Positions 32,527 through 54,367 of a stretch of 64,000 nt of DNA are shown here, piece by piece. The notes under the pieces were generated by a model that saw nothing but the letters and a program-made list of their open reading frames with translations, made no database searches and had not been told where the DNA came from. Made by a program: the position numbers and the translations under genes. How positions within the stretch are numbered: position 1 is the first letter of the stretch; every line of letters starts with the position of its first letter. The DNA is from Spirochaetales bacterium (GTDB lineage: Bacteria > Spirochaetota > Spirochaetia > JABEVK01): NCBI GenBank assembly GCA_037142615.1, contig JBAXAI010000001.1, forward strand, positions 256,001 through 320,000, written 5' to 3'.

Positions 32527-32528
32527 CC

Positions 32529-33185
32529 TTGTCCCCGGCTCCCGGACTTTCTCCCGTCACGATAACCAGGCGGGAGCTTTGGGGGCCGGAGACTTGGCTT
32601 GTGCGTTGGACTCGCAACTGGCCGTTTCGCGCGGGGCAGGTGGTCTCGCTGGCTCTGGTCGAGGGTGGGCCTCAACGTATGTACAGCCTGGCGACCGGGT
32701 CCGGGCAGGGCGAGGCCGGTATCTTGTTCAACCGCGTGGAAGCCGGAGAACTCACTCCCTCGATGGCCGAACTGGAACCTGGAGCCACAGTTTGGGTGAG
32801 CGAGCCCTTTGGGAGTTTCCCCGGAAGCGCAGGTCCTGCGGTGTGGATTGCCACCGGTACCGGTGTGGCACCCTTCCTTTCGATGGTTTTGTCCGGACTC
32901 GGCGCAGGCAAAACTCTCATTCACGGAGCACGAACTCTTGATTCCTTTTACGGACAGGATCTCCTGGCAGAACACTTGGGAACTGGTTATGTGCGCTGTT
33001 GCACGACAGAAGCCGCCCCAGGGGTATTCTCGGGACGCCTGACCCGCTATCTTGAAGCCCAACCGTGGACCGCCGATCGACCTTACCTCCTGTGCGGGAG
33101 CGCTCCCATGATCGTCGATGTCCGGGAAATCCTTTTTCGCAAAGGTGTTCCTTTCCGGTCAATTCTGGCGGAGGTCTTCTTTTGA
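32529..33185 (+). CDS. Ferredoxin/flavodoxin-NADP+ reductase-like flavoprotein (paralog 1)
   Basis: FRAGQ, RMYS, G..T, ATGTGVAPF, LCGS, C-terminal EVFF. Confidence 0.88.
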   Translation: MSPAPGLSPVTITRRELWGPETWLVRWTRNWPFRAGQVVSLALVEGGPQRMYSLATGSGQGEAGILFNRVEAGELTPSMAELEPGATVWVSEPFGSFPGSAGPAVWIATGTGVAPFLSMVLSGLGAGKTLIHGARTLDSFYGQDLLAEHLGTGYVRCCTTEAAPGVFSGRLTRYLEAQPWTADRPYLLCGSAPMIVDVREILFRKGVPFRSILAEVFF

Positions 33186-34225
33186 GTGTTCTTCTTCCTG
33201 TGCTCTACGGAAAAACTCTGGGCGAACTGCGTGAAATTGCCAAGACTCTTGACGCGCCGGCCCATACGGGTAACCAACTGGCTTCCTGGCTCTACCAAAA
33301 GAGCGCGTCGTCGTTCGATTCCATGACCGACCTGCCCAAAGTTTTGAGGCAGCGGCTTGCCGAGAGTTATTCGTTGGGACTCGTGGCACCCTCGCGGGTC
33401 GACTCTTCCGTGGATGGCACCAAGAAGTATCTTTTTCCCGTGGCGGGAAAGTTTGTCGAAGCCGCTTACATCCCGGATTCTGACCGCAAGACTCTTTGCC
33501 TGAGTTCCCAGGTTGGTTGCAAGATGGGCTGTCTGTTTTGCATGACCGCGAGGCAGGGCTTTCAGGCCCACCTCACCGCGGCCGAGATTCTCAACCAGAT
33601 CCGCAGTCTTCCTGAACGCGAAGAACTGACGAACATCGTCTACATGGGGATGGGAGAACCTCTCGACAATCTGGAAAACACCTTGGCCAGTCTTGAGATT
33701 CTTACCTCGGACTGGGGCCTGGGGTTCGGAAACCAAAAAGTCACCGTGTCTTCAATCGGTATGCTTCCCGCGCTGCAGACTTTCTTCGAACGCACGAAAG
33801 TCCGGTTTGCTCTGTCACTTCATTCGCCGTTCGACGAGGAGCGAAGACAATTGATGCCGGTGCAGTTGGTTCACCCGTTGGCGTCGGTGCTCGAGTACCT
33901 CAAGGTCGCTCAGGAGCAGGATGCCCGGCGTCTGTCGGTAGAGTACATTTGCTTTGCCGGGGTCAACGATAGCGCCCGCCACGTCAAGGAATTGGTCCGC
34001 ATTCTTCATGGTCTGAAGATCCGAATCAACCTGATCCGGTTTCACCCGATTCCAGAGACTCCCCTGGTGGGCTCCGACGAGCGGGCCATGGTTCGCATGC
34101 GAGACGCTCTGATTGAAAAGGGCCTACAGGCGACCATCCGCAAGTCCCGTGGCCAAGATATCTACGCGGCCTGCGGCATGCTGTCGACCAAAGCCCTGCT
34201 CAAGCCGACCGCTACCGACTACTGA
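33182..34225 (+). CDS. rlmN: Radical-SAM 23S rRNA/tRNA C2 methyltransferase
   Basis: CLSSQVGCKMGCLFC, MGMGEPL, SLH, AACGML; TTG start overlaps the upstream TGA. Confidence 0.95.
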   Translation: MSVLLPVLYGKTLGELREIAKTLDAPAHTGNQLASWLYQKSASSFDSMTDLPKVLRQRLAESYSLGLVAPSRVDSSVDGTKKYLFPVAGKFVEAAYIPDSDRKTLCLSSQVGCKMGCLFCMTARQGFQAHLTAAEILNQIRSLPEREELTNIVYMGMGEPLDNLENTLASLEILTSDWGLGFGNQKVTVSSIGMLPALQTFFERTKVRFALSLHSPFDEERRQLMPVQLVHPLASVLEYLKVAQEQDARRLSVEYICFAGVNDSARHVKELVRILHGLKIRINLIRFHPIPETPLVGSDERAMVRMRDALIEKGLQATIRKSRGQDIYAACGMLSTKALLKPTATDY

Positions 34226-34857
34226 TCTCCCCAGCCACGAACCCAAAGGGGGCGTCCGTTTTCGGAGGTCCGCACGAAACCGACCCGCTTCAGGTAGGCT
34301 TCATGGGCCTTGACCCGGGTTTCGGCGACGAACTTGCCGTTCTTCTCCCAGTCCAGTTCCCGGACGCCTTCGTTGAAGAAGAACCTCGCGGTCTGAAAAT
34401 CTCTCCAGGCGGGAATCGCATAGTCCAAGAGTATCCGCTGTGTGTCGCCTTCTTTCCTGCATACAAAGAGTGACACCGGAAGTACTTCCCTGAGCAGGAA
34501 AATGACCCGGCTACCCTTGAGGTCTTCGGCGGTAAACTCGGGCTGAAACCTGAGAATATCCTGCGAATGATGGGCAAGGAATTGACCTAGCAGGGCGTCA
34601 GACTCGGGAAACTTCACCTCGAGCAGCGAGAAATTGTCCTTCTGACGGGCCAACTGCACGAGGTAGTAGGTGTTGATCACCACGATGAAGGCATTGAGGC
34701 CGAAGACCGGCCAGGACTGGATCAGCAGCCCGTAGACCGAAAAGAACAGCGCCCCGACCAAGTTGACCGTCCGCAACCAGCGGAGATTCTTCATGGTCAG
34801 AGAAATGGCCACCACGACCGAACTGAAGGTCCCGAGAATCTCGATGTAGGGGTTCAT
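34219..34857 (-). CDS. YgjV-like inner membrane protein with soluble C-terminal domain
   Basis: Three or four short TM segments with LR.VN..G..F..YG; C-terminal LDYAIP.WRDF; SD GGAGG. Confidence 0.6.
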   Translation of the reverse strand: MNPYIEILGTFSSVVVAISLTMKNLRWLRTVNLVGALFFSVYGLLIQSWPVFGLNAFIVVINTYYLVQLARQKDNFSLLEVKFPESDALLGQFLAHHSQDILRFQPEFTAEDLKGSRVIFLLREVLPVSLFVCRKEGDTQRILLDYAIPAWRDFQTARFFFNEGVRELDWEKNGKFVAETRVKAHEAYLKRVGFVRTSENGRPLWVRGWGDQ

Positions 34858-34895
34858 GGACAAGCCTCCAAAGTTTCAGTATAAGGGGAATCACA

Positions 34896-35825
34896 ATGAC
34901 CTGGACAACCTTTTTCAAGATCGTCGAACTGCGAACCAAAATCGTCAGTGTGTCAACTTTCCTCTTGGCAACCCTTTCAACTGCGTGGTTGTACGGCGAA
35001 CTTCCTTGGGTCCTGGTGGTCTTCTTGCTTCTCGCCGTCTTGGCCATCGACATGGGAACAACGGCGTTCAACTCTTTTTTTGACTTTGAAAAGGGCGTTG
35101 ACACGTCGGGAACCAACCAGGAATCGGACAAAGTTCTGGTTCATCAAAGGATTCCCACGGGCTATGCGCTACTGACCGCACTGGCACTATTTGCATTTGC
35201 CGCCGTTCTCGGACTGTTCTTGGCCTTGTGGAAGGGCTGGCCGCTGCTCGTTCTCGGCGGGCTGAGCCTGCTTGTCGGCTATCGGTATTCCGGGGGGAGG
35301 GTTCCTATCAGTTCCACTCCCTGGGGTGAGGCCTTTGCCGGCTTCTTTCTGGGCTCGGTGCTTTGGCTCGTTGTTTCCTTCACGCTGGCACCCGCCGGAA
35401 CACCCTCGCCGGTCTGGGATCCCCAATTCTGGGGGCTTCACTTTCTGCACAGCTTGCCCTCACTCCTGTTCATCGCGAGCATCCTAACTGTGAACAACTG
35501 CTGCGATCGCGAAGGGGACTCGGCAGCCGGACGAAAAACACTGTCGCTTCTTCTGGGACCACCAGCAGATCTCCTGATCGTGCTTCTACCCCTGGCGGCC
35601 TACGTGCTGACAATCGCGCTTTCGCTGGGAGGCCTTCTTCCGTTTCCGCTGGCGTTCAGTTCGCTCGCAGGCCTGCTGTTCACGGTTCCCCTTTGGCGGG
35701 GCATGTTCCAACGTGGCTTCTCGCACCAGACAAAGGGACCCAACATGGGGGCAGTCTCCCAGACCTTCCTCGCCTATACCCTATTTTCAACCCTCGGCTG
35801 GGTTGCGGGTCTGCTGCTCCGTTGA
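34896..35825 (+). CDS. menA: MenA/UbiA-family prenyltransferase
   Basis: N..FD..KG.D and NN..D...D..AG.KTL aspartate motifs; YSGG..P; multiple TMs. Confidence 0.75.
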   Translation: MTWTTFFKIVELRTKIVSVSTFLLATLSTAWLYGELPWVLVVFLLLAVLAIDMGTTAFNSFFDFEKGVDTSGTNQESDKVLVHQRIPTGYALLTALALFAFAAVLGLFLALWKGWPLLVLGGLSLLVGYRYSGGRVPISSTPWGEAFAGFFLGSVLWLVVSFTLAPAGTPSPVWDPQFWGLHFLHSLPSLLFIASILTVNNCCDREGDSAAGRKTLSLLLGPPADLLIVLLPLAAYVLTIALSLGGLLPFPLAFSSLAGLLFTVPLWRGMFQRGFSHQTKGPNMGAVSQTFLAYTLFSTLGWVAGLLLR

Positions 35826-36511
35826 AGCGGGGTTGTTTTCTTCTCAGTCTGGCGCTGGCCTTTCCGATGGCGGCCGAAGTGCCGGTGCCCGCGGCGCTTG
35901 AAACCGCTCATTTGCTCGGCAAGGGGCGTCCAGCCGGAGCACCCCCTGTGTCTCTTCAGGATGAACTGTTCGTTCTCGCGATGGGAAGCAACAACCAAAT
36001 GGGCTATCTGGAGCGAGTCTCGATGCCTGGTGAGTCCTGGCTGTTTCGGGCTCGTGTTGTCGATCTCGTCGATGACAGCTTGATTTGGGAACAAATCTGG
36101 GTCACCGACGAGGAAATTGACCGCTGGTGGCCTGAGCAGGGGGGGGGCGTCATGCGGTCACTGAAAAGCCATCACCTGGAACCGGTCGATTTTCAGATGG
36201 GTGAGTTTCCGGTGATTCTCGACGACCAATTCTATACGGCAACCTTGCGTCGTACGGCGTCTGCCTCTGACCCGGCCTTGTTCGGGCGTCTCGAGGTCGT
36301 CGTACAGTCAACTGGCCAGGGAATCAAGACCGTCTGCGACCTGTCGGGGGCCTGGCGGTGGGCTTCCGTACTCGGGTTTATCCCTTCGCCTTTCGAGAAC
36401 CGTCTGGCTATTATTCTGCTCGTTCAGCCGGAAGGTTGGAGCGGTCCACAGCAACCTCTGAGGTTCCTTGTCGCCGGGGCCAGTCTCAAGGCCGGTTTTG
36501 CCCAGCCTTGA
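35822..36511 (+). CDS. Exported hypothetical protein
   Basis: TTG start overlaps the menA stop; signal-peptide-like MKRGCFLLSLALAFPMAA. Confidence 0.6.
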   Translation: MKRGCFLLSLALAFPMAAEVPVPAALETAHLLGKGRPAGAPPVSLQDELFVLAMGSNNQMGYLERVSMPGESWLFRARVVDLVDDSLIWEQIWVTDEEIDRWWPEQGGGVMRSLKSHHLEPVDFQMGEFPVILDDQFYTATLRRTASASDPALFGRLEVVVQSTGQGIKTVCDLSGAWRWASVLGFIPSPFENRLAIILLVQPEGWSGPQQPLRFLVAGASLKAGFAQP

Positions 36512-36557
36512 CGGAAGCCCCCGATACGCCGTTTAATACGCACTAAAGAGGGTATCC

Positions 36558-38003
36558 TTGGGGCTTCTCGCCGTTTCCGAAAATCTCCAGTATAGGCGTC
36601 TCATAGAGAGCCTCGAGAATGAGCTCGCCTTGTCGCGGGGCAAGATCGACAAGTTGACCCAGAAGCTCGAGGTCAACGAAGATACCGGCTTGCCCAACGC
36701 CGTGGTCATGAACCGCGAAATGGAAGGACTTCTCAAGGCGACTCCCGATTCGAAGGCCGTTCTCTTCCTGTCGTTGACCGACCAGTACACCACGCTCAAG
36801 CGAACCTCGCCGAGCAAGCCCCAGTGGATTCTCTTCAACACCGCAATCCGCATCATGACCGTCGTCGCCGAGCACGGTCGGGTCTACCACACCCGCGAAG
36901 AAGAGTTTCTGATTCTTCTGGAAGACTTGCACGACCCCGTCGCTGTGACGCAATTGGCCTCCGAAATCGTGAAGCAGGTGAAGGAAGCCTACGTGCTCAA
37001 CGGGCAGACGATTTCTCTTGGCGTCAACATTGGGATCGCACTCTACCCCGAACAAGGTGAAAGCAAGTCCATTCTGCTGCGGCACGCCGACATCGCCCTC
37101 AGCGAGTCGATCAAGAACAAGAGCATGTACCAGCTCTTCACGCCCGAACTGCGGGACCGAATGATCGAAAAAGATGAGCTGCAGAAAAAGATCCTCAAAG
37201 CGCTCGAAGTGAACAACTCCGATGAGCGCCCCCAACTGATGTTGTACTTCCAACCCCAAGTCGAGATCCGCAACTGGAACACACCAGAAGTACAGGGCAG
37301 GGTGGTCGGCGCGGAAGTGCTCATCCGTTGGAATCACCCGACTGACGGCTTCATCCCACCCGGAAAGTTCATTCCGGTAGCCGAAGAGACGGGCTTGATT
37401 GTCCACATGGGCACCTGGATTCTGCACACGGCCATCAGCTGCCTCCAGGATCTGGCCCTGCAGGGGTATGGCACCATCACGGTTTCGGTCAACATTTCCA
37501 GCGTGCAGATGAACATGGACGACTTTATACCCCGCATGAAAGAGATCGTTCGCCGCCTCAAGACTGCCGACCATCCCATGAAACTGGAGCTCACTGAAAG
37601 CGGCATGGTGAACATCGAAGACACCATCAAGAAGATCGGTGACATGAAAGAGATGGGCTTTAAGATTCTGCTCGATGACTTCGGCACCGGTTACTCGTCG
37701 CTCAGTTACCTCAAGGATCTGCCGATCGACGTCGTCAAGATCGACAAGTCTTTTGTCGATGGGGTACCTGCCGGTGAAAAAGATACCGCCATGACTCGCA
37801 CTATCATCACTTTGGCGAAGGAACTCCGGAAAGACATCATTGTGGAGGGCACCGAACACCGAGAGCAGATCGACTGGCTCTTCGATCATGGTTGCACGGT
37901 CTATCAGGGCTACTACTTCAGCAAGCCCTTGCCCTATAGCGACTTTGTTCAGTACCTCAAGAACTTCCCTGCCATCTTTGAAGAGAAATCCCGACCCAAC
38001 TAG
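36558..38003 (+). CDS. c-di-GMP phosphodiesterase: degenerate GGDEF plus intact EAL domain
   Basis: DTGLPN, REEEF in place of GGDEF; FQPQ, EVLIRW, VNIS, ELTES, DDFGTGYSSL, KIDKSF, EG.E, QGY. Confidence 0.92.
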   Translation: MGLLAVSENLQYRRLIESLENELALSRGKIDKLTQKLEVNEDTGLPNAVVMNREMEGLLKATPDSKAVLFLSLTDQYTTLKRTSPSKPQWILFNTAIRIMTVVAEHGRVYHTREEEFLILLEDLHDPVAVTQLASEIVKQVKEAYVLNGQTISLGVNIGIALYPEQGESKSILLRHADIALSESIKNKSMYQLFTPELRDRMIEKDELQKKILKALEVNNSDERPQLMLYFQPQVEIRNWNTPEVQGRVVGAEVLIRWNHPTDGFIPPGKFIPVAEETGLIVHMGTWILHTAISCLQDLALQGYGTITVSVNISSVQMNMDDFIPRMKEIVRRLKTADHPMKLELTESGMVNIEDTIKKIGDMKEMGFKILLDDFGTGYSSLSYLKDLPIDVVKIDKSFVDGVPAGEKDTAMTRTIITLAKELRKDIIVEGTEHREQIDWLFDHGCTVYQGYYFSKPLPYSDFVQYLKNFPAIFEEKSRPN

Positions 38004-41088: not shown

Positions 41089-41094
41089 AAAAAA

Positions 41095-41123
41095 AGTGTA
41101 CTCGGTCTTTTCTTTTTCCACAA
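41095..41123 (-). promoter_or_regulatory. Promoter 6 nt before the rarA GTG; probable leaderless start
   Basis: Minus strand TTGTGG-17 nt-TACACT-tttttt-GTG. Confidence 0.55.
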
Positions 41124-41161
41124 ATGTCCTAGGATTAAATACGCATGCGAGGAGTGACACT

Positions 41162-43381: not shown

Positions 43382-43383
43382 CC

Positions 43384-43417
43384 AAAACGGTCGCCTTGAC
43401 GGCGGCCGTTTTTTTTT
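43384..43417 (+). terminator. Intrinsic terminator after the MCP gene
   Basis: AAAACGGTCGCC-TTGAC-GGCGGCCGTTTT followed by a T run. Confidence 0.85.
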
Positions 43418-43432
43418 CTATTTTTGACGGCT

Positions 43433-44089
43433 ATGACCGTCAGCCAAGCAACCAACCGCGTTCTGGGCGTTGAACGACTGGCGCCCGGGATTTTTGTCCT
43501 GCGCTTTGAAAGAAAGGGCCTGAAGTTCGAGACAGGGCAATACCTGAGCTTGGGACTGCCAGGGCTGCGGAAAGAGCGCGAATACTCGATTTACTCCGGC
43601 GAAGCGGACCCTGAACTGAGCGTGCTTGTGAAAGAAGTTCCTTCCGGCGAAATATCCCCCCAACTTGCCAAGTTGAAGCCCGGCGACGCCTTGAACGTGT
43701 CGGGGCCGTTCGGCTATTTCCTGCTACGGCCCACCATCGGCCCCGGGTATCCATTGCTGTGGATCGCTACCGGAACCGGAATTTCGCCTTTCCGCTCCTT
43801 CGCAAGGTCCTTGCCCGAAACAGATTACGTGTTGTTGCACGGCACGAGAAGTCTGGAGGAAACCGTGCTTTCGTCGGGCTTTGCTCGCAGTCAAACGGTA
43901 TCCTGCGTTTCAGGCAGCCCAGGGGGTACCTACCATGGGCGGGTAACCGGGTATCTTTCGACCATGGAGCTTTCACCCCTAACCAGAGTCTTCCTCTGTG
44001 GGAACTGCGACATGATCTATGACGCCTTCGACTTGTTGCAGGCCAAAGGGATTCCGGCAGGCCAGATCTTCACCGAAGTGTATTACTAG
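43433..44089 (+). CDS. Ferredoxin/flavodoxin-NADP+ reductase-like flavoprotein (paralog 2)
   Basis: FETGQY, REYS, G..S, GPFG.F, ATGTGISPF, LCGN, C-terminal EVYY. Confidence 0.9.
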   Translation: MTVSQATNRVLGVERLAPGIFVLRFERKGLKFETGQYLSLGLPGLRKEREYSIYSGEADPELSVLVKEVPSGEISPQLAKLKPGDALNVSGPFGYFLLRPTIGPGYPLLWIATGTGISPFRSFARSLPETDYVLLHGTRSLEETVLSSGFARSQTVSCVSGSPGGTYHGRVTGYLSTMELSPLTRVFLCGNCDMIYDAFDLLQAKGIPAGQIFTEVYY

Positions 44090-44096
44090 GAGCCTC

Positions 44097-45410
44097 ATGA
44101 AGTACTACATCCTGAATCTGGGCTGCCAGATGAACCAGGCCGACTCGGAGCGCATTCAGTCGGTATTGGAAACCATGGGGCTCCAGAAGACCGACGACGA
44201 GGCCCAAGCTTCCGTTCTTGGCCTGGTCGCCTGTTCCGTGCGTCAGAAAGCGATCGACCGGGTCCACACCAAGATCCACGAATGGAACGAACGCAAGGCG
44301 CAAGAAAACGTCGTGACCTTTCTTTCGGGCTGCGTACTACCAGCGGATGAAGACGCTTTTCTGAAGAAGTTCGACCTGATGTTCTCGATTGCCGACCTCG
44401 GCAAGTTGCCGGAACTCCTGAGGGGGCACGGAATCGTAACGCCCCTGAGTCAGACCTTGCCCGCTGGCAACGGTCTGGATCACTTCTGGAACGTGGTTCC
44501 CCAGTATTCCAGCACCTTCGAAGCGTATGTCCCCATTCAAAACGGGTGCGACAAGTTCTGTACGTTCTGCGCCGTTCCCTACACCCGAGGCCGTGAGGTC
44601 TCGCGGCCTTCAGCAGCCATCCTGCAAGAGGTGAGGGACCTTGTCGACAAGGGATTCAAAAGTATTACCCTGCTGGGACAAAACGTGAACAGCTATGGCC
44701 TCGACAAGCCCGGTGAAGAACTTTCGTTCGTCAATCTGCTGACCCAGATCGGCGAATACGGTCGTTCAACCGGCCGGGAGTTCTGGGTCTACTTCACTTC
44801 GCCGCATCCCCGAGATATGGGAACCGATATCCTCGAGGCCATCCGGGACTTTCCGGTACTCGCAAAACATATTCACTTGCCCTTGCAGTCGGGTGATGAC
44901 AAGGTTCTGATCCGGATGAACCGCAATCATTCGATGGACCGTTACCGATCTCTCGTCGGCACCTTGCGCGAACTACTCCCGGAGGCGACGCTGGTTACCG
45001 ACATCATCGTAGGCTTCACAGGAGAGTCAGTCGAACAGTTCGAGAATACACGGTTGGCGATGCGGGAGTTTGGCTACCAAATGGCTTTTGTCGCTGCCTA
45101 CAGCCCACGACCCGGCGCGGCCTCGGCCCGCTGGAACGACGATGTTCCTCTGGGCGAGAAGAAGCGTCGCTTGCAAGTTTTGACCGAAGAGCTTCACCTG
45201 AGCTCGCTGGAGTTTAACCGCAAGCTTTTGGGAAGAAACCTTCGGGTGCTCGTGGAACGCCAAGACAAGAAGGCCGGCTATTTGGCCGCAAGAACCGAGG
45301 GCAAGATCCCGATCCGGTTTGCTTCTTCCGATCTTTCACTCATCGGATCCTTCGTGTCGGTTGTCGTTGAGTCGGTGGTTCCCCTTTCGATAGAGGGCAG
45401 ACTCGTCTGA
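44097..45410 (+). CDS. miaB: Radical-SAM tRNA methylthiotransferase
   Basis: GCQMN.ADSE, CSVR, GC; GCDKFCTFC.VPYTRGRE.SR; LLGQNVNSY; FTSPHP; DIIVGF.GE; TRAM-like C-terminus. Confidence 0.93.
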   Translation: MKYYILNLGCQMNQADSERIQSVLETMGLQKTDDEAQASVLGLVACSVRQKAIDRVHTKIHEWNERKAQENVVTFLSGCVLPADEDAFLKKFDLMFSIADLGKLPELLRGHGIVTPLSQTLPAGNGLDHFWNVVPQYSSTFEAYVPIQNGCDKFCTFCAVPYTRGREVSRPSAAILQEVRDLVDKGFKSITLLGQNVNSYGLDKPGEELSFVNLLTQIGEYGRSTGREFWVYFTSPHPRDMGTDILEAIRDFPVLAKHIHLPLQSGDDKVLIRMNRNHSMDRYRSLVGTLRELLPEATLVTDIIVGFTGESVEQFENTRLAMREFGYQMAFVAAYSPRPGAASARWNDDVPLGEKKRRLQVLTEELHLSSLEFNRKLLGRNLRVLVERQDKKAGYLAARTEGKIPIRFASSDLSLIGSFVSVVVESVVPLSIEGRLV

Positions 45411-45461
45411 AAACAGGGTTGTTTCCTCAACGGTTGGCACTAGAATGAAAGGGGGGACGAA

Positions 45462-49302: not shown

Positions 49303-50288
49303 GCGCGAGGGGACTCTTTCACGTAGCTCCTCTGCAGGTAGAAGTCCGTCCCGTCGAACTTCGGCCTTTGAGCTCTGTGAGTCTGACGCTGAAGACTGAT
49401 TTCTCGGCGATCAGCTCAGGAACAGAGCGCCTTCTTTTCACGGGTCAGTTTCCCGAGGAACTCGAGCTCGATGCTGTGATCCCAGAGCTCCAAAGGGCAA
49501 TCGGCTATCCGTTTGCCTATGGTTATAGCCTTGTGGGACGTTGTGTCGAAGTCGGGACGAAGGTTGACCCGGTACTTCTGGGAAAGAGTTTCTTCGCCTT
49601 TCATCCCCATCAGGACGTCTGCCGTTTGCCGCTGGAGAGGGTCATGCCGGTTCCCGACGAGATTCCCCTGCGAAGGGCGCTGTTTTACCCCTTTCTTGAG
49701 ACCGCAATAACCCTGGTGCTCGACGCGGCGCCTCTCTGGGGTGAACGGGTTGCTGTTTTCGGTCTGGGAACGATAGGACTGCTGGTGACACGTATCTTGA
49801 GCAAGTTCCCACTGGCCAATCTCACGGCTTTTGAGCCACAATCTGCCCGCAGGACCCGTGGACTCGCAGCCGGGGCCTCGGTCTGCCTGTCAGGACCTCA
49901 CGAATCTGGCACCGACAACTTTGACGTGGTGATCGAACTGTCGGGGACACAACAAGGACTGAGCGAGGCTTTCAGGGTCGTTGGCTTTTCGGGCAGGATT
50001 GTTTCAGGGTCTTGGCACGGCCAGTCCCCGGTGGATTCCGGAGCACGAACCGCGTTTCATCGCAAACGGGTCACGCTCATTTCCAGTCAAGTCAGCACAA
50101 TCGCGCCTGCCTTGAGTGCGCGCTGGACCAAGGAACGACGGGCCGCCCAAACTTGGCAACTGCTTGCCATCACGGACTTGGAGTCCGACATCGCGGCTGA
50201 AGTCCCGTTCGAGGATTCCGCTGAAGCGTTCCGTTCACTGATCTCCGGAGCAGCTTCGGGGCAGATCGTTCTGACCTACCCCGAATGA
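49293..50288 (+). CDS. MDR-superfamily oxidoreductase lacking catalytic Zn ligands
   Basis: SAISSGTE, YGYS.VG, FHPHQ, G.G.IG Rossmann motif, SSQVS. Confidence 0.8.
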   Translation: MGLSARGLFHVAPLQVEVRPVELRPLSSVSLTLKTDFSAISSGTERLLFTGQFPEELELDAVIPELQRAIGYPFAYGYSLVGRCVEVGTKVDPVLLGKSFFAFHPHQDVCRLPLERVMPVPDEIPLRRALFYPFLETAITLVLDAAPLWGERVAVFGLGTIGLLVTRILSKFPLANLTAFEPQSARRTRGLAAGASVCLSGPHESGTDNFDVVIELSGTQQGLSEAFRVVGFSGRIVSGSWHGQSPVDSGARTAFHRKRVTLISSQVSTIAPALSARWTKERRAAQTWQLLAITDLESDIAAEVPFEDSAEAFRSLISGAASGQIVLTYPE

Positions 50289-50292
50289 CCTG

Positions 50293-51642
50293 CTAACGGA
50301 GTTCGTTCACAACGTCGACGACCGACTTAGGCGCCAACGTTGTGGTTTTTCCAGCAACGACGGTGACCTTGGCCTCAACAGCGACGGGACCCGCTTCGAG
50401 CCGGATCTTATAGGTTCCTTGGGGGAGGCCCAGAAGTAAAGGCTTGTCTTTCTGTTCCACATCGTTCACGAAGACCCTTACCAAGCGCTGATTAGCGGCC
50501 TGGATCCAACCATCGGTCTTGATTTGGATGGTTCCAAGCTCGGGTATCAGGCCAACGCTGATCGAGGTCGGATTGGCAGGCATGTCAAACTGCTGGTTAT
50601 ACATCTGGTATCCCAATGCGGTCACAACCAGATTATGGATTCCAGGAGTAACCGAAACCGGGTTTGAAACCACCTGCTGGTTGTCGATCGTGATAAGCGC
50701 ACCAGGGACGTTCACGGCAACATTCAGGGCGAACAAGGCGGGAACCAAAGTGATGTTCAGGATGTTGGGCTGGGCCTGCATCGTGAATTGTAGCGAGTAA
50801 GGTTGGTACCCTGGGGCGGTGACGAGAAGAGTGTGGTTACCTTGGGCAAGGGCGACGGGAAATGCCGGTACCGGTGTATTATCAATCTGCACGTTGGCCC
50901 CGTTCACGTTGGTCCGCACCGTCAACGGAAAGCTGGCCGGCTGAAGCGTCACCGTCATGTTGATGCCGCGGGCACCCATCGAGATATTCTGGGTGAAGGG
51001 CTGAAAACCGGGCGCAGTGACGGTCAAAGTATGGGGCCCAGCGCTGATCATCGAGGGGATGGTGATTGCCGTGTTGTCGACGAGGATTGTGGCTCCGGGT
51101 ACGTTGACGCTGACATTGAGCGGGAATCCAGCGGCCTGCAACGTGACATTGATGGTTTGGGCGCCTGCGGGCATGTTGAACGACTGATTCCACGGGCTGA
51201 AGCCCATCGCAGTTACGGTGAGCGTGTGGTTGCCCGCCGTCAGCGCGACAGGGTTGGAGGCTATGGCCTGGTTGTCAATCAGAATCTGAGCCCCCGGAAC
51301 ATTGACGGCGATACTCAGGGGGAAGGACCTCACCACAGGGGCCGCAGGAAGCACCGGATTGTAGGGTATTGTCGTATCACCGTTGATCTTGGCGTTGACG
51401 GTATTGACCGGCTGCCCAGGGACCAGGAAGCCCAGCACGTGCTGACCAGGCTTGACGTAAACCGTGAACGGGATAGTTCCGGCATCCTGTCCGTCGATGG
51501 TGACCTGCACGTTGGCCAAATTGGATTGAAACTCAAGTTTGAAAAGGCCTAGGGCCTTCTGGGACGAAAAGGCCTGACCGGCCAAGCCAACCGAGCAGAA
51601 CAACACGGTCAGAGCGGCAAGCATCAAAACGGGTTTTTTCAT
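50293..51642 (-). CDS. Exported PEGA-repeat protein (about 6 domains)
   Basis: Signal peptide; four central ~63 aa repeats F.L.V.VNV.GA.I.IDN...G.HTL.VTA.G[FY]; SD AGGAG. Confidence 0.85.
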   Translation of the reverse strand: MKKPVLMLAALTVLFCSVGLAGQAFSSQKALGLFKLEFQSNLANVQVTIDGQDAGTIPFTVYVKPGQHVLGFLVPGQPVNTVNAKINGDTTIPYNPVLPAAPVVRSFPLSIAVNVPGAQILIDNQAIASNPVALTAGNHTLTVTAMGFSPWNQSFNMPAGAQTINVTLQAAGFPLNVSVNVPGATILVDNTAITIPSMISAGPHTLTVTAPGFQPFTQNISMGARGINMTVTLQPASFPLTVRTNVNGANVQIDNTPVPAFPVALAQGNHTLLVTAPGYQPYSLQFTMQAQPNILNITLVPALFALNVAVNVPGALITIDNQQVVSNPVSVTPGIHNLVVTALGYQMYNQQFDMPANPTSISVGLIPELGTIQIKTDGWIQAANQRLVRVFVNDVEQKDKPLLLGLPQGTYKIRLEAGPVAVEAKVTVVAGKTTTLAPKSVVDVVNELR

Positions 51643-51698
51643 GGACACTCCTTGGACAAACAATTCAGCTTCTTATTATACCTTTGCGGCCGAGAAAA

Positions 51699-52517
51699 TC
51701 AAGGAACAGGAAGTTCAACAGGCCGCAGAGTCCCGGTACCTTTGGAGGTCCAATCAATATTGGAATACCGTGCATACGCCCATTGATCGGCTCGTTCTGT
51801 CTCGGCAGGGCCAAGGTTCGAAGGCTCAAGAAGGATTCCCAGACACAATTCGAGGTTACTGGCCAAGCGATCCCCTAGCGCGTCTGTCGCCTCACGATAG
51901 CCCAGGGAATCCAGATCGGTCACTTTTTCTGGAACCGGGAGAAACTCTGGGGCGAAGAGAGTTCCCAGGGCTGACCAATCCAGTCGGAAAGGGATCGAGC
52001 CGTGCTGGAAAACGAACCCGCGCTCGCGCCTCTGGGCGTTGCCGCCAAGTTTTCGGCCGTCCACAAGAATGTCGTACGCTTCGGTTCCCGCGAAACAGGC
52101 GGGAGTCACAGCGCCAAGACTAGGGGCAGGCCCGAGGTCCTTCGCGAAACCGGCCTCGTAGCCCAATTCCTTCCAAGTAGCGAGAAGGAAACCGCACAGG
52201 CGCTCATAAGTCGCCTTGACCCCGGAGGTGTCCAAGTCCTCGGCGCGAAACCCCAGACTATAGGTCAATTCCCGGTCGTGCCAGATGGCGCCGCCTCCGG
52301 TACTGCGCCGAACGACCGGAAACCGGTCGAGCACTCCCGGCAATAATCCCGTCGAGGTGTTCTGAAACCGCCCCAGCGAGAGGCAGGCAGGTTCCCAAGT
52401 GTAGAGGCGAAAAAAGGGTTGGAACTGCCGGGACATCGACTCGAGCAGTGTGTGATCGACCGCCATGTTCCACGCCCCGGAAGCGGAGCCGGAACGCAGG
52501 AAGCGCCATTTCGTCAT
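51699..52517 (-). CDS. Lipoate-protein ligase family protein (single-domain, LipM-like octanoyltransferase)
   Basis: NMAVD, RLY.W...LSLG.FQ, RRSTGGGA..HD, CF, KLGGNAQ, QHGSI; ATG 52517 overlaps the gcvH stop. Confidence 0.88.
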   Translation of the reverse strand: MTKWRFLRSGSASGAWNMAVDHTLLESMSRQFQPFFRLYTWEPACLSLGRFQNTSTGLLPGVLDRFPVVRRSTGGGAIWHDRELTYSLGFRAEDLDTSGVKATYERLCGFLLATWKELGYEAGFAKDLGPAPSLGAVTPACFAGTEAYDILVDGRKLGGNAQRRERGFVFQHGSIPFRLDWSALGTLFAPEFLPVPEKVTDLDSLGYREATDALGDRLASNLELCLGILLEPSNLGPAETERADQWAYARYSNIDWTSKGTGTLRPVELPVP

Positions 52518-52882
52518 TCCCGATGGACCTTTGCTCTCCAGGCCACCTCGGTAAGGAGGGGTTCGAGGTCTCCTGGAACAACGTTTGCCAGCTCGATGAG
52601 CCATGCCTCACCTTCGGGGTCCTGATTGAGCAGTCCAGGGTTTCCAGACACCGCGGCGTTTACCAAGCGGACGGTTCCCGAGACCGGCGGGTGAAAGTCC
52701 GTGGCTGCCTTTACGGCTTCGATGACTGCTGCGGGGGAGTCGGGAGCAACTCTGGTGCCGACGAGAGGCAACTCTATGAACGTGACGTCGCCAAGATCGC
52801 TGACATTTTCGACGGAAAGTCCGACGCGCCAGCCCGATTCCACGGCTTCGACCCATTCTCCGGAGAGCGAGAAAAGCTTCAT
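52514..52882 (-). CDS. gcvH: Glycine cleavage H-like lipoyl carrier protein
   Basis: EWV, LGDVTFIELP, IEAVKA (lipoyl-Lys), PVSG.V..VN, N.DP...AWL. Confidence 0.9.
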   Translation of the reverse strand: MKLFSLSGEWVEAVESGWRVGLSVENVSDLGDVTFIELPLVGTRVAPDSPAAVIEAVKAATDFHPPVSGTVRLVNAAVSGNPGLLNQDPEGEAWLIELANVVPGDLEPLLTEVAWRAKVHRE

Positions 52883-53757
52883 AGGTCTTGTACCTCCGAG
52901 GCACGGTAGGAGCTTCTTACCAGCGGACCCGAAGCGACGTGCCGGAAACCCAGCGAAAGGGCACTTCGCTTCAGCTGAACAAACTCCTCAGGCGTGTAGA
53001 ATTTACGCACCTCGAGGTGATGAACGGTCGGTTGCAAGTACTGCCCCAAGGTCAGGAAATCTGTGCCGACGGTGCGGAGGTCCTTCATTGCCTCCAAAAG
53101 TTCCTCCGTGGATTCACCAAGTCCCACCATCAGGCTGGACTTGGTCTTCAGACCACGGGACTTGTAAAAAGAAAGGCAAGCCAGAGTCTTTTCGTAACCG
53201 GCCCGCACGTCGCGCACAGGATGGGTCAGGCGCCGCACGGTCTCGAGATTCTGGGCGGCGATGTAGGGTTGGCTATCGGCTAGGATCGCCATTCTCGCCG
53301 GATCCGCGCCGAAGTCGGGCACCAAAGCTTCCACTTTTGTCGCAGGGTGTGCCCGGTGCACCGCGTCAATCACGTCGGCAAAATGCTGGGCACCGTGGTC
53401 GGGTAGATCGTCACGGTCGACGCTGGTGATGACCACATGCGACAATCCCATGAAAGTAACCAACTCCACCGTGGATTGCACTTCCCGGGCCTCAACGAGT
53501 CCTGCCGGGTGCCCTGTCTTGACGTGGCAGAAGCGGCAACCCCGGGTGCACGTGTCCCCCAAGATCATGATTGTGGCCGTGTGACTGCTCCAGCATTCGT
53601 TGAGGTTCGGGCATGAAGCTTCGACACAAACGGTGTGTAGTCCCTTTTCCCTCAAATTGGACCTCAGATCGTGAAACTCATCGCTGCGTCTTCCCTGAAC
53701 TTTGAGCCAGTCAGGTTTTCGAAGTTGGGCAAGTTCAGACAAAGAAGCTCTCCTCAT
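52879..53757 (-). CDS. lipA: Lipoyl synthase (radical SAM)
   Basis: KPDWLK, CVEASCPN..EC, CTRGCRFC, TSVDRDDL, GQYLQP, RSSY. Confidence 0.96.
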   Translation of the reverse strand: MRRASLSELAQLRKPDWLKVQGRRSDEFHDLRSNLREKGLHTVCVEASCPNLNECWSSHTATIMILGDTCTRGCRFCHVKTGHPAGLVEAREVQSTVELVTFMGLSHVVITSVDRDDLPDHGAQHFADVIDAVHRAHPATKVEALVPDFGADPARMAILADSQPYIAAQNLETVRRLTHPVRDVRAGYEKTLACLSFYKSRGLKTKSSLMVGLGESTEELLEAMKDLRTVGTDFLTLGQYLQPTVHHLEVRKFYTPEEFVQLKRSALSLGFRHVASGPLVRSSYRASEVQDL

Positions 53758-54367
53758 GGATGCGTGCTGGTTCTATCCCGAGCGTAGCCAATTGCTCGCT
53801 GCAACTCTGGATCATCCGGGGGTTCCCGCAAAGATAATACTGATGACCGGGTCCAATCGGAAAGCTCTCGTTCACACGGATGTGGCGTCGAGGCTCTTCC
53901 CGTGAGAAGTACCACTGAACGTCACATCGACTTTCCAGAAACTCGCTGAAAAGGGCTTCTGCCCGACTTCTGACCCCGAAGTACAGCCTGGGCCTGAAGT
54001 TCGAGGGGCCGCGCAGGCAGGCGACAAATGGCGAAATACCAGTTCCCGTCGCCAGCCAGACCTCGGATTCGGATTGGCCAGGCGCAAACCCGCCAAAGGG
54101 TGTCCCCAAACCTACGAGGTCACCAGGCCTGCGACTAGCCAGCCAGGTACTGAACTGCCCCTCTGACGGGACGGTGGCAGGACTCCGGATCAAGAAGCGA
54201 AGCTCCGACTGCGAAGGGTGGGACGAAAAACTGTAGGGCCTCGAGTCTACCCCGTCGTCGCGAATCAGCAGGGTGCAGTCGCCCGCACGATACTCCAAAC
54301 CCTCCCGGCTCACTACCAGCTCAAAGACCTCGGTTGTCAGCCAATGGGTAGAACGGACAATCGCCAA
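53735..54367 (-). CDS. Ferredoxin/flavodoxin-NADP+ reductase-like flavoprotein (paralog 3)
   Basis: YRAGD, RPYS, G..S, PFG.F, ATGTGISPF, LCGN, C-terminal ESFFV. Confidence 0.85.
   Translation of the reverse strand: MAIVRSTHWLTTEVFELVVSREGLEYRAGDCTLLIRDDGVDSRPYSFSSHPSQSELRFLIRSPATVPSEGQFSTWLASRRPGDLVGLGTPFGGFAPGQSESEVWLATGTGISPFVACLRGPSNFRPRLYFGVRSRAEALFSEFLESRCDVQWYFSREEPRRHIRVNESFPIGPGHQYYLCGNPRMIQSCSEQLATLGIEPARIHEESFFV

What the first reader, a model, noticed from the sequence alone, without database searches (positions are those of the whole stretch)
32529..54367. Each radical-SAM gene (rlmN, miaB, lipA) has its own coupled FNR-like reductase immediately upstream
Seen: three separate loci share one architecture. 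FNR1 (32529-33185) has a 4-nt TTGA overlap with rlmN. FNR2 (43433-44089) has a stop that is part of the miaB SD (TAGGAG), 7 nt before the ATG. FNR3 (54367-53735, minus) overlaps lipA by 23 nt. These are the only FNR-like genes and the only radical-SAM genes I recognise in the window, so the pairing is 3 of 3. The ~210-220 aa paralogs keep RxYS, ATGTG.xPF, LCG and an aromatic C-terminus but are otherwise divergent, so they are not recent copies. Established: radical-SAM [4Fe-4S] clusters need one-electron reduction, supplied in E. coli by shared flavodoxin/Fpr/NADPH. Inference: this lineage may use partner-specific NAD(P)H flavoreductases, possibly reducing each enzyme directly, since no flavodoxin or ferredoxin gene lies at these loci. 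I am not aware of this arrangement being described.
Basis: partly seen in the sequence, partly recalled or inferred. Interest (0 to 1): 0.88.

Follow-up and report, generated by a model that had tools for sequence, protein, structure and literature searches.

The report
Private reductases beside three radical-SAM genes
Three housekeeping radical-SAM enzymes (RlmN, MiaB, LipA) each have a small flavin reductase gene directly upstream, a pairing also seen in several bacterial phyla, which gives a testable candidate for how these enzymes get their activating electron in cells.

Summary
Three 210-218 aa two-domain FNR-type genes sit directly upstream of rlmN (4-nt TTGA overlap), miaB (7-nt spacer) and lipA (23-nt overlap).

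The pairing is not chance and not lineage-specific.
- Family relatives: FNR-miaB in 10 of 10 assessable genomes, FNR-rlmN in 9 of 11, FNR-lipA in 9 of 12.
- 80 homologues from at least six phyla: 61 of 76 assessable lie next to a radical-SAM gene.
- Five cultured strains: 11 of 13 mini-FNRs flank RlmN, MiaB or LipA, out of 133 radical-SAM hits.

Further results:
- rlmN-linked FNRs form one clade; miaB- and lipA-linked ones intermix.
- The fold is nearest to bacterial flavodoxin/ferredoxin-NADP+ reductases.
- A complex model puts the flavin-side face of FNR1 on RlmN's CX3CX2C loop: ipSAE 0.85, best control 0.47.

Caveats:
- A fourth paralog precedes a PlsC-like acyltransferase.
- Nine other radical-SAM genes have no FNR.
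- Flavodoxin and ferredoxin genes exist elsewhere in the genome.
- Nothing is shown biochemically.

Nine literature searches found no description. Best reading: dedicated NAD(P)H-linked reductases, probably docking directly on the partner.

The parts
31252..32526 (+). glgC (glucose-1-phosphate adenylyltransferase). It is the first gene of the glgC-FNR1-rlmN string, and its stop lies 2 nt before the FNR1 start.
   Evidence: NCBIfam NF002772, 593 bits, cut-off 537. Junction sequence read. An RNA-library contig spans 32425-32619 (record 11).
32529..33185 (+). FNR1, a 218-aa stand-alone two-domain FNR/FPR-type flavoprotein of the rlmN-linked clade.
   Evidence: Translation. Pfam and NCBIfam. AF2 model with pLDDT 94.7. 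Nearest folds are bacterial FPRs. Tree.
33182..34225 (+). rlmN, the radical-SAM 23S rRNA/tRNA m2A methyltransferase. TTG start in a 4-nt TTGA overlap with the FNR1 stop; GGAGG 7 nt upstream.
   Evidence: TIGR00048, 320 bits, cut-off 290. Junction. CX3CX2C at residues 113/117/120 of the 347-aa protein.
43433..44089 (+). FNR2, 218 aa (221 aa if it starts at the TTG at 43424), the miaB-linked mini-FNR.
   Evidence: A 218-aa form with 100% identity is on record in the protein collection (P0007).
44097..45410 (+). miaB, the tRNA ms2i6A methylthiotransferase. Its ATG is 7 nt after the FNR2 stop, which is part of TAGGAG.
   Evidence: TIGR00089, 372 bits, cut-off 251. TIGR01574, 351 bits, cut-off 355.3. 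Junction.
53735..54367 (-). FNR3, 210 aa, the lipA-linked mini-FNR on a divergent long-branch clade.
52879..53757 (-). lipA, lipoyl synthase. Its ATG lies 23 nt inside the end of FNR3.
   Evidence: TIGR00510, 343 bits, cut-off 310. Junction.
51699..52604 (-). Lipoate-protein-ligase-like gene, 275 nt downstream of lipA on the same strand. Context only.
   Evidence: Weak NCBIfam hits to LplA models, 62 bits and far below cut-offs.

Best explanation
Each of the three small FNR-type flavoproteins is a dedicated NAD(P)H-dependent reductase for the radical-SAM enzyme encoded directly behind it.

Proposed mechanism:
1. The pair is made together, from tightly coupled or overlapping reading frames.
2. 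The reductase takes a hydride from NAD(P)H onto its flavin.
3. It docks with the face that carries its flavin-motif and C-terminal aromatic residues against the CX3CX2C loop of its partner.
4. It passes single electrons to the [4Fe-4S]2+ cluster, which must reach the 1+ state before it can cleave SAM.
5. No flavodoxin or ferredoxin acts as a go-between.

Shown here: the gene pairing, its conservation within and across phyla, the FPR-type fold and motifs, and a controlled structural model of the FNR1-RlmN complex.

Inferred: flavin and NAD(P)H binding, electron transfer itself, its directness, and preference for the cognate partner.
For: 1. Coupling in the window. The junctions are a 4-nt overlap, a 7-nt spacer and a 23-nt overlap.

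2. Conservation in the window's own family of 12 genomes (coordinates compared across).
- FNR-miaB in 10 of 10 assessable genomes.
- FNR-rlmN in 9 of 11.
- FNR-lipA in 9 of 12.

3. Other families of the class. G015 has FNR-miaB. G034 has FNR-rlmN plus an FNR divergent from lipA. G039 has FNR-rlmN.

4. Cross-phylum sample: 80 FNR genes in 79 loci (classified).
- rlmN directly downstream: 33.
- miaB directly downstream: 11.
- A B12-type radical-SAM gene directly downstream: 2.
- lipA immediately adjacent: 10, in three different orientations.
- rlmN as the second gene downstream: 5.
- At a contig end: 4.
- Other contexts: 15.
- Total: 61 of 76 assessable.

5. Whole-genome census in five cultured strains. 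Of 13 mini-FNRs, 11 flank RlmN (5), MiaB (4) or LipA (2), out of 133 PF04055 hits. Two strains carry all three pairs.

6. Tree of 98 FNRs. All 36 rlmN-linked genes fall in one clade of 54 rows (SH-aLRT 84). Partner labels need 24 changes, against a shuffled mean of 55.6 (as low in 0 of 200 shuffles).

7. Complex model of RlmN + 4Fe-4S + FAD + FNR1, using my own alignments A3 and A2.
- ipSAE 0.85, 0.85 and 0.86; best of 3 controls 0.47.
- In the tool's calibration the mark was reached by 58 of 80 solved complexes and 2 of 110 mismatched pairs. The tool says these counts hold only roughly here, because own alignments were used and ligands rode along.
- The runs agree in at least 92% of contacts; partner pLDDT is 92.
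- The interface includes RlmN 113-116 and 118, inside C113-x3-C117-x2-C120. On FNR1 it includes residue 51 (within RxYS), 94-97, 191-200 and 212-218, including E215 and the C-terminal F218.

8. Clade-specific interface residues. Position 199 is Arg in 100% of rlmN-linked FNRs but Phe or Thr in the others. Position 51 is Ile/Met versus Glu in 93-100%. Clade-discriminating positions make up 6 of 35 interface positions against 9 of 174 others (Fisher p = 0.023).

9. Fold and profile are nearest to bacterial FPRs, including E. coli flavodoxin reductase 1fdr (TMq 0.87).

10. No flavodoxin gene and no ferredoxin motif lies in the window.

11. G015 has FNR-miaB but no PF00258 flavodoxin match (96% complete).
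Against: - A fourth close paralog (FNR4, G000:C8:71150-71818) is coupled by a 1-nt overlap to a PlsC-like acyltransferase, which has no Fe-S cluster. The pair is kept in G002.
- Nine of the 12 radical-SAM genes in this genome have no FNR: MoaA, RimO, HemW, NrdG, an RlmN/Cfr-like paralog, MnmL/YtqA and three glycyl-radical activases. RimO is a close MiaB paralog.
- miaB- and lipA-linked FNRs are intermixed in the tree, so partner specificity is not shown for them.
- FNR3-type genes in three family relatives (G006, G007, G009) lie after a HAD hydrolase or an amylase gene rather than next to lipA.
- The genome has a flavodoxin, a clostridial-type ferredoxin and a PFOR.
- All 12 genomes of the family, all of which have mini-FNRs, also have a stand-alone flavodoxin. 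That fits a relay just as well.
- One control in the complex job scored 0.47, and the tool states that close cousins of a true partner also pass. The model therefore says nothing about paralog specificity.
- FNR flavin potentials are usually higher than those of radical-SAM clusters (recalled, not computed).
- No fused FNR-radical-SAM protein was found.
Confidence: 0.5

Rival explanations
1. The mini-FNRs are ordinary flavodoxin/ferredoxin-NADP+ reductases. They reduce the cell's shared flavodoxin or ferredoxin, which in turn reduces RlmN, MiaB and LipA, as in the E. coli Fpr/FldA relay. Placing them in these operons only matches electron supply to enzyme synthesis.
For: - The nearest solved structures are FPRs, including E. 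coli flavodoxin reductase.
- These are the only stand-alone two-domain FNRs in the genome. The other seven FNR-domain genes are multidomain, so any Fpr function would have to come from them.
- One flavodoxin and one small ferredoxin are encoded.
- A stand-alone flavodoxin is present in 12 of 12 family genomes.
- The Fpr/FldA relay and a T. maritima ferredoxin plus FNR supporting MiaB are the documented precedents (passages of PMC10470005).
Against: - A shared relay does not explain three to four divergent paralogs per genome, each kept beside a particular enzyme across phyla.
- It does not explain an rlmN-specific clade with clade-specific residues at the predicted interface.
- The complex model places RlmN against the FNR1 face that carries the flavin-motif and C-terminal aromatic residues.
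- No carrier gene lies at the three window loci. I did not screen the other loci for carrier genes.
- G015 has FNR-miaB but no PF00258 match, although ferredoxins were not surveyed there.
Confidence: 0.27
2. The FNRs serve a different redox need of these enzymes rather than SAM cleavage. One candidate is re-reducing or repairing oxidised or degraded clusters after oxygen exposure, for example [3Fe-4S] back to [4Fe-4S], or the auxiliary clusters that MiaB and LipA consume. Another is keeping catalytic cysteines reduced.
For: - One homologue precedes an aconitase gene, another enzyme with a labile [4Fe-4S] cluster (L082).
- The carriers come from anoxic or micro-oxic habitats. This genome has NrdG, glycyl-radical activases and a PFOR.
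- In two strains with two LipA paralogs, only one is FNR-linked. That would fit a condition-specific role.
Against: - RlmN has no auxiliary cluster (recalled), yet it is the commonest partner.
- The modelled interface is at the radical-SAM cluster loop.
- Repair and activation would both mean electron delivery to the same cluster, so this rival overlaps with the main reading.
Confidence: 0.13
3. There is no functional link. The pairing is operon hitch-hiking inherited by descent or moved together by chance.
For: - 15 of 76 assessable homologues have other neighbours: LolA-like, MurB, a metallo-beta-lactamase-fold hydrolase and others.
- FNR4 pairs with an acyltransferase.
Against: - The same three enzyme types recur in at least six phyla.
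- lipA is found upstream of, downstream of and divergent from the FNR, so the pairing was re-created several times.
- 11 of 13 mini-FNRs flank these enzymes in five independent genomes, where radical-SAM genes number 133 in total.
Confidence: 0.05

Closest known systems
E. coli flavodoxin reductase Fpr with flavodoxin FldA, the standard NADPH-driven reducing system for radical-SAM enzymes
   Same: - Same two-domain FAD/NAD(P) fold: 1fdr has TMq 0.87 and a profile E-value of 3e-24.
- Same RxYS, GTGxxP and CG motifs and aromatic C-terminus.
- Same presumed purpose, moving NAD(P)H electrons towards radical-SAM clusters (passages of PMC10470005).
   Different: - About 30-40 residues shorter: 210-222 aa against 248 aa for the 1fdr chain.
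- Only 23-26% identical in the structural alignments.
- Far below the NCBIfam Fpr cut-off: 26-58 bits against 390.
- Present as several paralogs, each encoded beside one client enzyme.
- No flavodoxin gene at the three window loci.
- Modelled as binding the client directly.
Eukaryotic TYW1, a radical-SAM enzyme with a fused flavodoxin-like FMN domain
   Same: A flavin module is dedicated to one radical-SAM enzyme and lets NAD(P)H alone drive it. [quoted passage not shown]
   Different: - There the module is a fused flavodoxin-type FMN domain. Here it is a separate FNR-type protein with its own NAD(P)-binding domain.
- The clients differ: RlmN, MiaB and LipA here.
- No fusion was found.
Thermotoga maritima MiaB supported by ferredoxins plus a ferredoxin-NADP+ oxidoreductase (Arcinas et al. 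2019). I saw this only as cited in PMC10470005 and PMC8896826.
   Same: MiaB is activated with NADPH as the ultimate electron source through an FNR (passages).
   Different: There, five interchangeable ferredoxins act as carriers (passage) and no dedicated operon partner is described. Here a specific mini-FNR gene directly precedes miaB and no carrier gene is nearby in the window.
FNR modules of BenC, MmoC, phthalate dioxygenase reductase and NqrF-type reductases
   Same: These are the best NCBIfam hits (BenC 54-80 bits). In them the FNR module hands electrons straight to an Fe-S centre.
   Different: Those proteins carry their own [2Fe-2S] ferredoxin domain and score above 430 bits. The mini-FNRs have no Fe-S domain, and the Fe-S centre would belong to the partner enzyme.

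Membership tests
FNR superfamily (two-domain FAD_binding_6 + NAD_binding_1 flavoprotein) | An FAD-binding beta-barrel followed by a Rossmann-type NAD(P)-binding domain | tested here: met
   - Pfam hits. FNR1 reaches the cut-off only for NAD_binding_1; FNR3's FAD_binding_6 is below cut-off.
- AF2 model with pLDDT 94.7 and pTM 0.91.
- 320 PDB chains at E <= 0.001, the listed best ones FNR-fold proteins.
FNR superfamily | RxYS flavin motif, GTGxxP nucleotide motif, CG motif and a C-terminal aromatic residue | tested here: met
   - Invariant in the five paralogs: R50, S53, G110, T111, G112, P115, F116, C189, G190 and E215.
- Also invariant in 33 rlmN-linked members: R50, S53, G110-T111-G112, P115, F116, C189, G190, E215 and F218.
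- The functional meaning of these motifs is recalled.
Bacterial flavodoxin/ferredoxin-NADP+ reductase, Fpr/FPR equivalog (NCBIfam NF008178) | Score above the curated cut-off of 390 bits | tested here: not met
   26.1, 58.0 and 29.6 bits for FNR1, FNR2 and FNR3, and 54.6 bits for FNR4. They are structural relatives, not orthologues.
Bacterial FPR | Reduces flavodoxin or ferredoxin with NADPH | not testable with these tools
   Needs an enzyme assay.
NAD(P)H-flavin reductase Fre/LuxG (NF005963, NF052252) | Score above the curated cut-offs (230 and 340 bits) | tested here: not met
   Not listed at E <= 0.01 for FNR1. 23.5 bits for FNR2 and 18.1 bits for FNR3.
BenC/MmoC-type oxygenase reductases | A plant-type [2Fe-2S] ferredoxin domain fused to the FNR module | tested here: not met
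   The proteins are 210-222 aa and only the FNR module aligns, for example BenC profile positions 132-330 of 333. No Fer2 hit.
RlmN (TIGR00048) | Score above cut-off, CX3CX2C motif and the two conserved mechanistic cysteines | tested here: met
   - 320.1 bits against a cut-off of 290.
- C113, C117 and C120, plus invariant C106 and C331.
- The roles of C106 and C331 are recalled by analogy with E. coli Cys118 and Cys355.
MiaB (TIGR01574) / MiaB-RimO family (TIGR00089) | UPF0004 + Radical_SAM + TRAM architecture, with a score above cut-off | tested here: inconclusive
   - The family model is met: 372.4 bits against 251.
- The MiaB equivalog scores 351.2 against a cut-off of 355.3, just below.
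- Pfam finds UPF0004 and Radical_SAM; TRAM is at 19.6 bits, below its cut-off of 21.
- A separate RimO exists elsewhere in the genome, so MiaB is the likely assignment.
Lipoyl synthase LipA (TIGR00510) | Score above cut-off | tested here: met
   342.6 bits against a cut-off of 310.25; NF004019 363 bits against 203.

The most novel reading that the evidence does not exclude
RlmN, MiaB and LipA of many anaerobes are two-protein, self-sufficient radical-SAM systems. A miniaturised FNR binds its own enzyme at the cluster loop and injects NAD(P)H-derived electrons directly, with no flavodoxin or ferredoxin. Because the pair carries its own electron supply, it moves between phyla as a unit. That would explain why RlmN is patchy in the window's class (16 of 41 genomes) and is next to an FNR in 11 of those 16.
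Probability: 0.4. Interest if true: 0.85.

Novelty: new variant of a known kind. Interest (0 to 1): 0.72.

Why it matters
- Every radical-SAM enzyme needs its [4Fe-4S] cluster reduced before it can act. What does this in cells is still called 'enigmatic', and the E. coli Fpr/FldA pair is used as a stand-in for nearly all enzymes (passages of PMC10470005; introduction of PMC8941971).
- A partner reductase encoded by the genome, conserved across phyla for three near-universal housekeeping enzymes, gives a concrete physiological candidate. It can be tested with a few purified proteins.
- The genes occur in cultured strains, among them Roseimarinus sediminis DSM 28824 and Sunxiuqinia indica, which carry all three pairs.
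- If reduction is direct, this would be a minimal NAD(P)H-to-radical-SAM chain.
- Such a chain would be useful for heterologous expression of Fe-S enzymes, where incompatible electron-transfer partners are a known barrier (PMC8896826 passages).
- It would also show how electron-donor specificity evolves by paralogy.

Tried and rejected
- Fusions. A search for longer relatives of FNR1 found none at E <= 1e-10 among 4936 candidates. The tool itself calls this weak evidence. The best 150 of 350 strong representatives are all 285 aa or shorter. So there is no Rosetta-stone support.
- Expression. Two metatranscriptome runs hold small parts of the region. Only one RNA-library contig bridges glgC and FNR1 (32425-32619). 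Nothing was laid over the FNR-radical-SAM junctions, and DNA carry-over cannot be excluded. I draw no conclusion on co-transcription.
- Charge complementarity. The pI values of the FNRs (medians 5.9-6.4) and the net charge at the modelled interface (+2 and -1) do not discriminate between direct docking and carrier binding.
- Flavodoxin absence as a correlate. Rejected, because PF00258 is found in 37 of 41 relatives, including all FNR carriers except G015.
- Partner identity of FNR3-type genes outside genera g1 and g2. Their neighbours are a HAD hydrolase or an amylase gene, so no Fe-S partner was seen.
- FNR4 locus. The 444-aa gene upstream and the ORFs downstream of the acyltransferase have no Pfam or NCBIfam family, so I have no explanation for this pair.
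- Earlier notes of this scan. Three look-ups returned nothing.
- Cognate versus non-cognate complex models. These could not be run, because only one complex job is allowed per session.
- Supplementary files of the papers were not seen.

Full report
**What is in the window**

- FNR1 is at 32529-33185(+), FNR2 at 43433-44089(+) and FNR3 at 54367-53735(-). They encode 218, 218 and 210 residues.
- Pfam finds the FNR-type FAD_binding_6 and/or NAD_binding_1 domains at modest scores. NCBIfam places them nearest to the FNR modules of BenC, MmoC and Fpr, but far below every curated cut-off.
- The genes behind them are RlmN (TIGR00048, 320 bits, cut-off 290), a MiaB/RimO-family methylthiotransferase, and LipA (TIGR00510, 343 bits, cut-off 310). 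The methylthiotransferase is best read as MiaB: TIGR00089 scores 372 bits, and the MiaB equivalog scores 351.2, just under its 355.3 cut-off.
- The junctions are as described. There is a TTGA overlap with a GGAGG 7 nt upstream of the rlmN TTG. The FNR2 stop lies inside TAGGAG, 7 nt before the miaB ATG. FNR3 and lipA overlap by 23 nt.
- FNR1 itself starts 2 nt after the stop of glgC.
- The paralogs share RxYS, GTGxxPF, CG and an aromatic C-terminus, but they are only 27-37% identical to FNR1.

**The whole genome**

The genome (4.27 Mb, 76 contigs, 96.7% complete) has 12 PF04055 radical-SAM matches and 12 PF00175 matches.
- Only the three window pairs are adjacent.
- The other nine radical-SAM genes have no FNR beside them. 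They are MoaA, RimO, HemW, NrdG, an RlmN/Cfr-like paralog, MnmL/YtqA and three glycyl-radical activases.
- Seven of the other FNR-domain genes are multidomain proteins: PyrK-like, MOSC-FNR-Fer2, Fer2-FNR, two FAD_binding_8 proteins, an amine-oxidase fusion and a 587-aa protein.
- Stand-alone mini-FNRs therefore number five: FNR1-3, FNR4 and FNR5.
- FNR4 (C8:71150-71818) scores 190 bits against the three-paralog HMM. It overlaps by 1 nt a PlsC-like acyltransferase gene downstream.
- FNR5 (C18) is distant. It follows an adenylate-cyclase-domain gene and serves as outgroup in the tree.
- Elsewhere the genome encodes one flavodoxin, a NifJ-type PFOR and one 55-aa 2x[4Fe-4S] ferredoxin. None of these is in the window.

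**Conservation in relatives**

I compared coordinates from four searches over the 12 genomes of the window's family.
- FNR-miaB is adjacent in 10 of 10 assessable genomes. G011's MiaB is cut at a contig end, and G007 has no MiaB orthologue.
- FNR-rlmN is adjacent in 9 of 11 genomes with RlmN. It is not adjacent in G006 and G009, and RlmN was not found in G010 (78% complete).
- FNR-lipA is adjacent in 9 of 12. It is not adjacent in G006, G007 and G009.
- In G009 the rlmN-type FNR still follows glgC, but an AbiEii toxin-antitoxin gene sits where rlmN would be.
- In other families of the class, FNR2-like genes were found in 5 of 29 genomes. G015 has FNR-miaB. G034 has FNR-rlmN plus a second FNR divergent from lipA. 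G039 has FNR-rlmN. G021 has an FNR after a fumarase gene. G035's match is a longer protein (376-aa open frame) whose surroundings I did not examine.

**Beyond the lineage**

A scan of one genome per species returned 80 loci. They come mostly from Bacteroidota (Marinilabiliales and Bacteroidales). Others come from Spirochaetota, Kiritimatiellota (Pontiella), Planctomycetota, Fibrobacterota, Cloacimonadota, Pseudomonadota and further phyla. The tool ranked them by similarity to FNR1, so rlmN-type genes are over-represented.

I classified 80 FNR genes in 79 loci. L046 holds two FNR genes. L083 was dropped because it has only a 102-aa fragment, although that too is followed by an rlmN-like ORF.

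| Neighbour | Count |
|---|---|
| rlmN directly downstream | 33 |
| miaB directly downstream | 11 |
| B12-binding radical-SAM gene directly downstream | 2 |
| lipA immediately adjacent | 10 |
| rlmN as the second gene downstream | 5 |
| At a contig end | 4 |
| Other | 15 |

- The lipA cases split into lipA upstream on the same strand in 6 and lipA divergent in 4. In the window's family, by contrast, lipA lies downstream of the FNR.
- The 15 'other' cases comprise eight with a LolA-like gene, plus MurB, an aconitase, a metallo-beta-lactamase-fold hydrolase, a divergently placed rlmN-like gene and three with no assignable partner (an unassigned 1150-aa ORF, a 346-aa ORF without a Pfam family, and no same-strand neighbour).
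- In total, 61 of 76 assessable genes lie next to a radical-SAM gene.
- The three different lipA arrangements argue that the pairing was made more than once.

**An unbiased within-genome census**

I searched the complete records of five cultured strains: Pontiella sulfatireligans, Alkaliflexus imshenetskii, Breznakibacter xylanolyticus, Roseimarinus sediminis and Sunxiuqinia indica.
- They hold 13 mini-FNR genes (E <= 1e-25) and 133 PF04055 hits.
- Eleven of the 13 flank RlmN (5), MiaB (4) or LipA (2).
- The other two are a Pontiella copy with an in-frame TGA and a Breznakibacter copy on a contig with no radical-SAM hit.
- Roseimarinus and Sunxiuqinia repeat the window's full three-pair pattern.
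- Both of these strains have two LipA paralogs, and only one of them is FNR-linked.

**Phylogeny**

I built a tree of 98 mini-FNRs (IQ-TREE quick search, SH-aLRT support only).
- All 36 directly rlmN-linked genes, and the 5 with rlmN as second gene downstream, fall in one clade of 54 rows (support 84). That clade also holds the LolA-linked Draconibacterium group.
- A second clade of 35 rows (support 92) mixes all 16 miaB-linked genes, 11 of the 13 lipA-linked genes, FNR4 and its G002 orthologue, the two B12-radical-SAM-linked genes and the aconitase-linked one.
- FNR3 and its G002 orthologue sit on a long branch with four genes of other context (support 99).
- Partner labels need 24 changes on the tree, against a shuffled mean of 55.6 (as low in 0 of 200 shuffles). 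Related rows inflate this measure.
- So 'clades sort by partner' holds for rlmN but not for miaB versus lipA.

**Structure and the complex model**

- FNR1 folds with confidence: pLDDT 94.7 and pTM 0.91, from a 33-row alignment.
- Its nearest solved folds and profile matches are bacterial flavodoxin/ferredoxin-NADP+ reductases. Examples are Brucella 6rr3, Azotobacter 1a8p and E. coli 1fdr (TMq 0.87), at 23-26% identity.
- In one controlled complex job I gave RlmN (alignment A3), a 4Fe-4S cluster, FAD and FNR1 (alignment A2). ipSAE was 0.85, 0.85 and 0.86, against a best control of 0.47 among three controls.
- In the tool's calibration this mark was reached by 58 of 80 solved complexes and 2 of 110 mismatched pairs. 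The tool warns that these counts hold only roughly here. The runs agree in at least 92% of contacts, and the partner's pLDDT is 92.
- On RlmN the confident interface includes residues 113-116 and 118, inside the C113-x3-C117-x2-C120 motif. It also includes 218-232, 292-295 and the C-terminus.
- On FNR1 it includes residue 51 (inside RxYS), 94-97, 191-200, 212-218 (with E215 and F218) and some NAD(P)-domain residues (133, 135, 157, 159, 170-172).
- I had no coordinates. The flavin-to-cluster distance, and whether NAD(P)H and RlmN could be bound at once, are therefore unknown.
- I know of no solved FNR-radical-SAM complex (recalled). None of the best 60 PDB matches names one.
- Several interface positions are fixed in rlmN-linked FNRs and different in the others: Arg199 at 100% versus Phe/Thr, and position 51 Ile/Met versus Glu at 93-100%.
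- Clade-discriminating positions are enriched at the interface: 6 of 35 against 9 of 174 (p = 0.023). This is modest support.

**What it most likely is**

The best-supported reading is that these are dedicated NAD(P)H-linked reductases that supply the activating electron to the enzyme they are made with, probably by direct docking (confidence 0.5).
- The main rival is the classical relay through the organism's flavodoxin or ferredoxin (0.27). It explains the FPR-like fold and the universal presence of a flavodoxin in the family. It does not explain the paralog-per-enzyme pattern.
- A repair or maintenance role for the clusters is a further possibility (0.13).
- Chance association is disfavoured (0.05).
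- The FNR4-acyltransferase pair, the nine FNR-less radical-SAM genes (RimO among them) and the mixed miaB/lipA clade are the main observations that the favoured model does not explain.

**Distribution hint**

RlmN is patchy in the window's class: 16 of 41 genomes at E <= 1e-60. It is FNR-adjacent in 11 of those 16. The window's FNR1 nests within the clade of 54 rlmN-type FNRs, most of them from Bacteroidota. This is compatible with the pair moving as a unit, but I did not test it.

**Comparison with what is known**

- The system works like the Fpr/FldA/NADPH system and like eukaryotic TYW1 with its fused flavodoxin domain (PMC10470005 passages; PMC8941971 abstract and introduction).
- It is a member of the FNR superfamily, but not an Fpr, Fre or BenC orthologue by curated thresholds.
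- Databases name these proteins only 'ferredoxin--NADP reductase', 'FAD-binding oxidoreductase' or 'hypothetical protein'.
- The family is compact: 350 representatives at E <= 1e-30 among 1.84 billion proteins.
- Nine full-text searches and term searches ('find') within PMC2836569 and PMC8896826 turned up no description of an FNR gene paired with rlmN, miaB or lipA.
- Subscription journals and supplementary files were not searched.

**Verdict**

This is a real, conserved and apparently undescribed gene pairing with a plausible mechanism that can be tested directly. I rate it a new variant of a known kind of system, with interest 0.72.

Noticed in passing
G000:C8:70461-71818 (locus L001:4462-5819, minus strand): A fourth close mini-FNR paralog (FNR4) overlaps by 1 nt a PlsC-like acyltransferase gene downstream. 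The pair is kept in G002 (L098). The flanking 444-aa and 252/408-aa ORFs have no Pfam or NCBIfam family. This is an FNR partner without an obvious redox need.
   Followed up: partly
window 31252-34225; L107 (G009:C98): glgC-FNR1-rlmN form one tightly packed string. In G009, glgC-FNR is kept but is followed by a 213-aa ORF of unknown family and an AbiEii toxin gene, with rlmN on another short contig. This looks like an insertion that split the pair.
   Followed up: partly
G000:C1:436053-437012 (L016:4053-5012, minus strand): An MnmL/YtqA-type radical-SAM gene (TIGR01212, 248 bits) lies in a 319-codon open frame. That frame has no ATG, GTG or TTG in its first 119 or so codons, although the family match starts at residue 21. 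The start may be unusual, or there may be a sequence error.
   Followed up: partly
G044 (Roseimarinus sediminis) C12:120313-121861 and C6:303899-304723; G045 (Sunxiuqinia indica) C11:596836-598338 and C34:314873-315703: Both strains have two LipA paralogs (43-47% identical to the window's LipA), and only one of them is next to a mini-FNR.
   Followed up: no
L082:3914-6619; L066:117-2366; L086:3908-6348: Mini-FNR homologues also lie directly upstream of an aconitase gene (a Bacteroidales MAG) and of B12-binding radical-SAM genes (two Pseudomonadota MAGs). The partner range may therefore be wider than RlmN, MiaB and LipA.
   Followed up: partly
relatives G012-G040: RlmN is found in only 16 of 41 genomes of the window's class at E <= 1e-60. 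That is patchy for an enzyme usually regarded as near-universal in bacteria.
   Followed up: no
G041 (Pontiella sulfatireligans) C1:1353991-1354626: This is a third mini-FNR copy with an in-frame TGA and no radical-SAM neighbour. It may be a pseudogene.
   Followed up: no
L083:4358-4663 (Cloacimonadaceae MAG): Only a 102-aa FNR fragment followed by a 149-aa rlmN-like ORF. This may be a decayed or frameshifted copy of the pair.
   Followed up: no
L117 (G034:C2:373000-385000): lipA, an FNR, rlmN and a second FNR lie within about 3.3 kb. One FNR is directly upstream of rlmN. The other is divergent from lipA and convergent with rlmN. In the window's genus the three pairs also lie within about 22 kb of one another.
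   Followed up: partly
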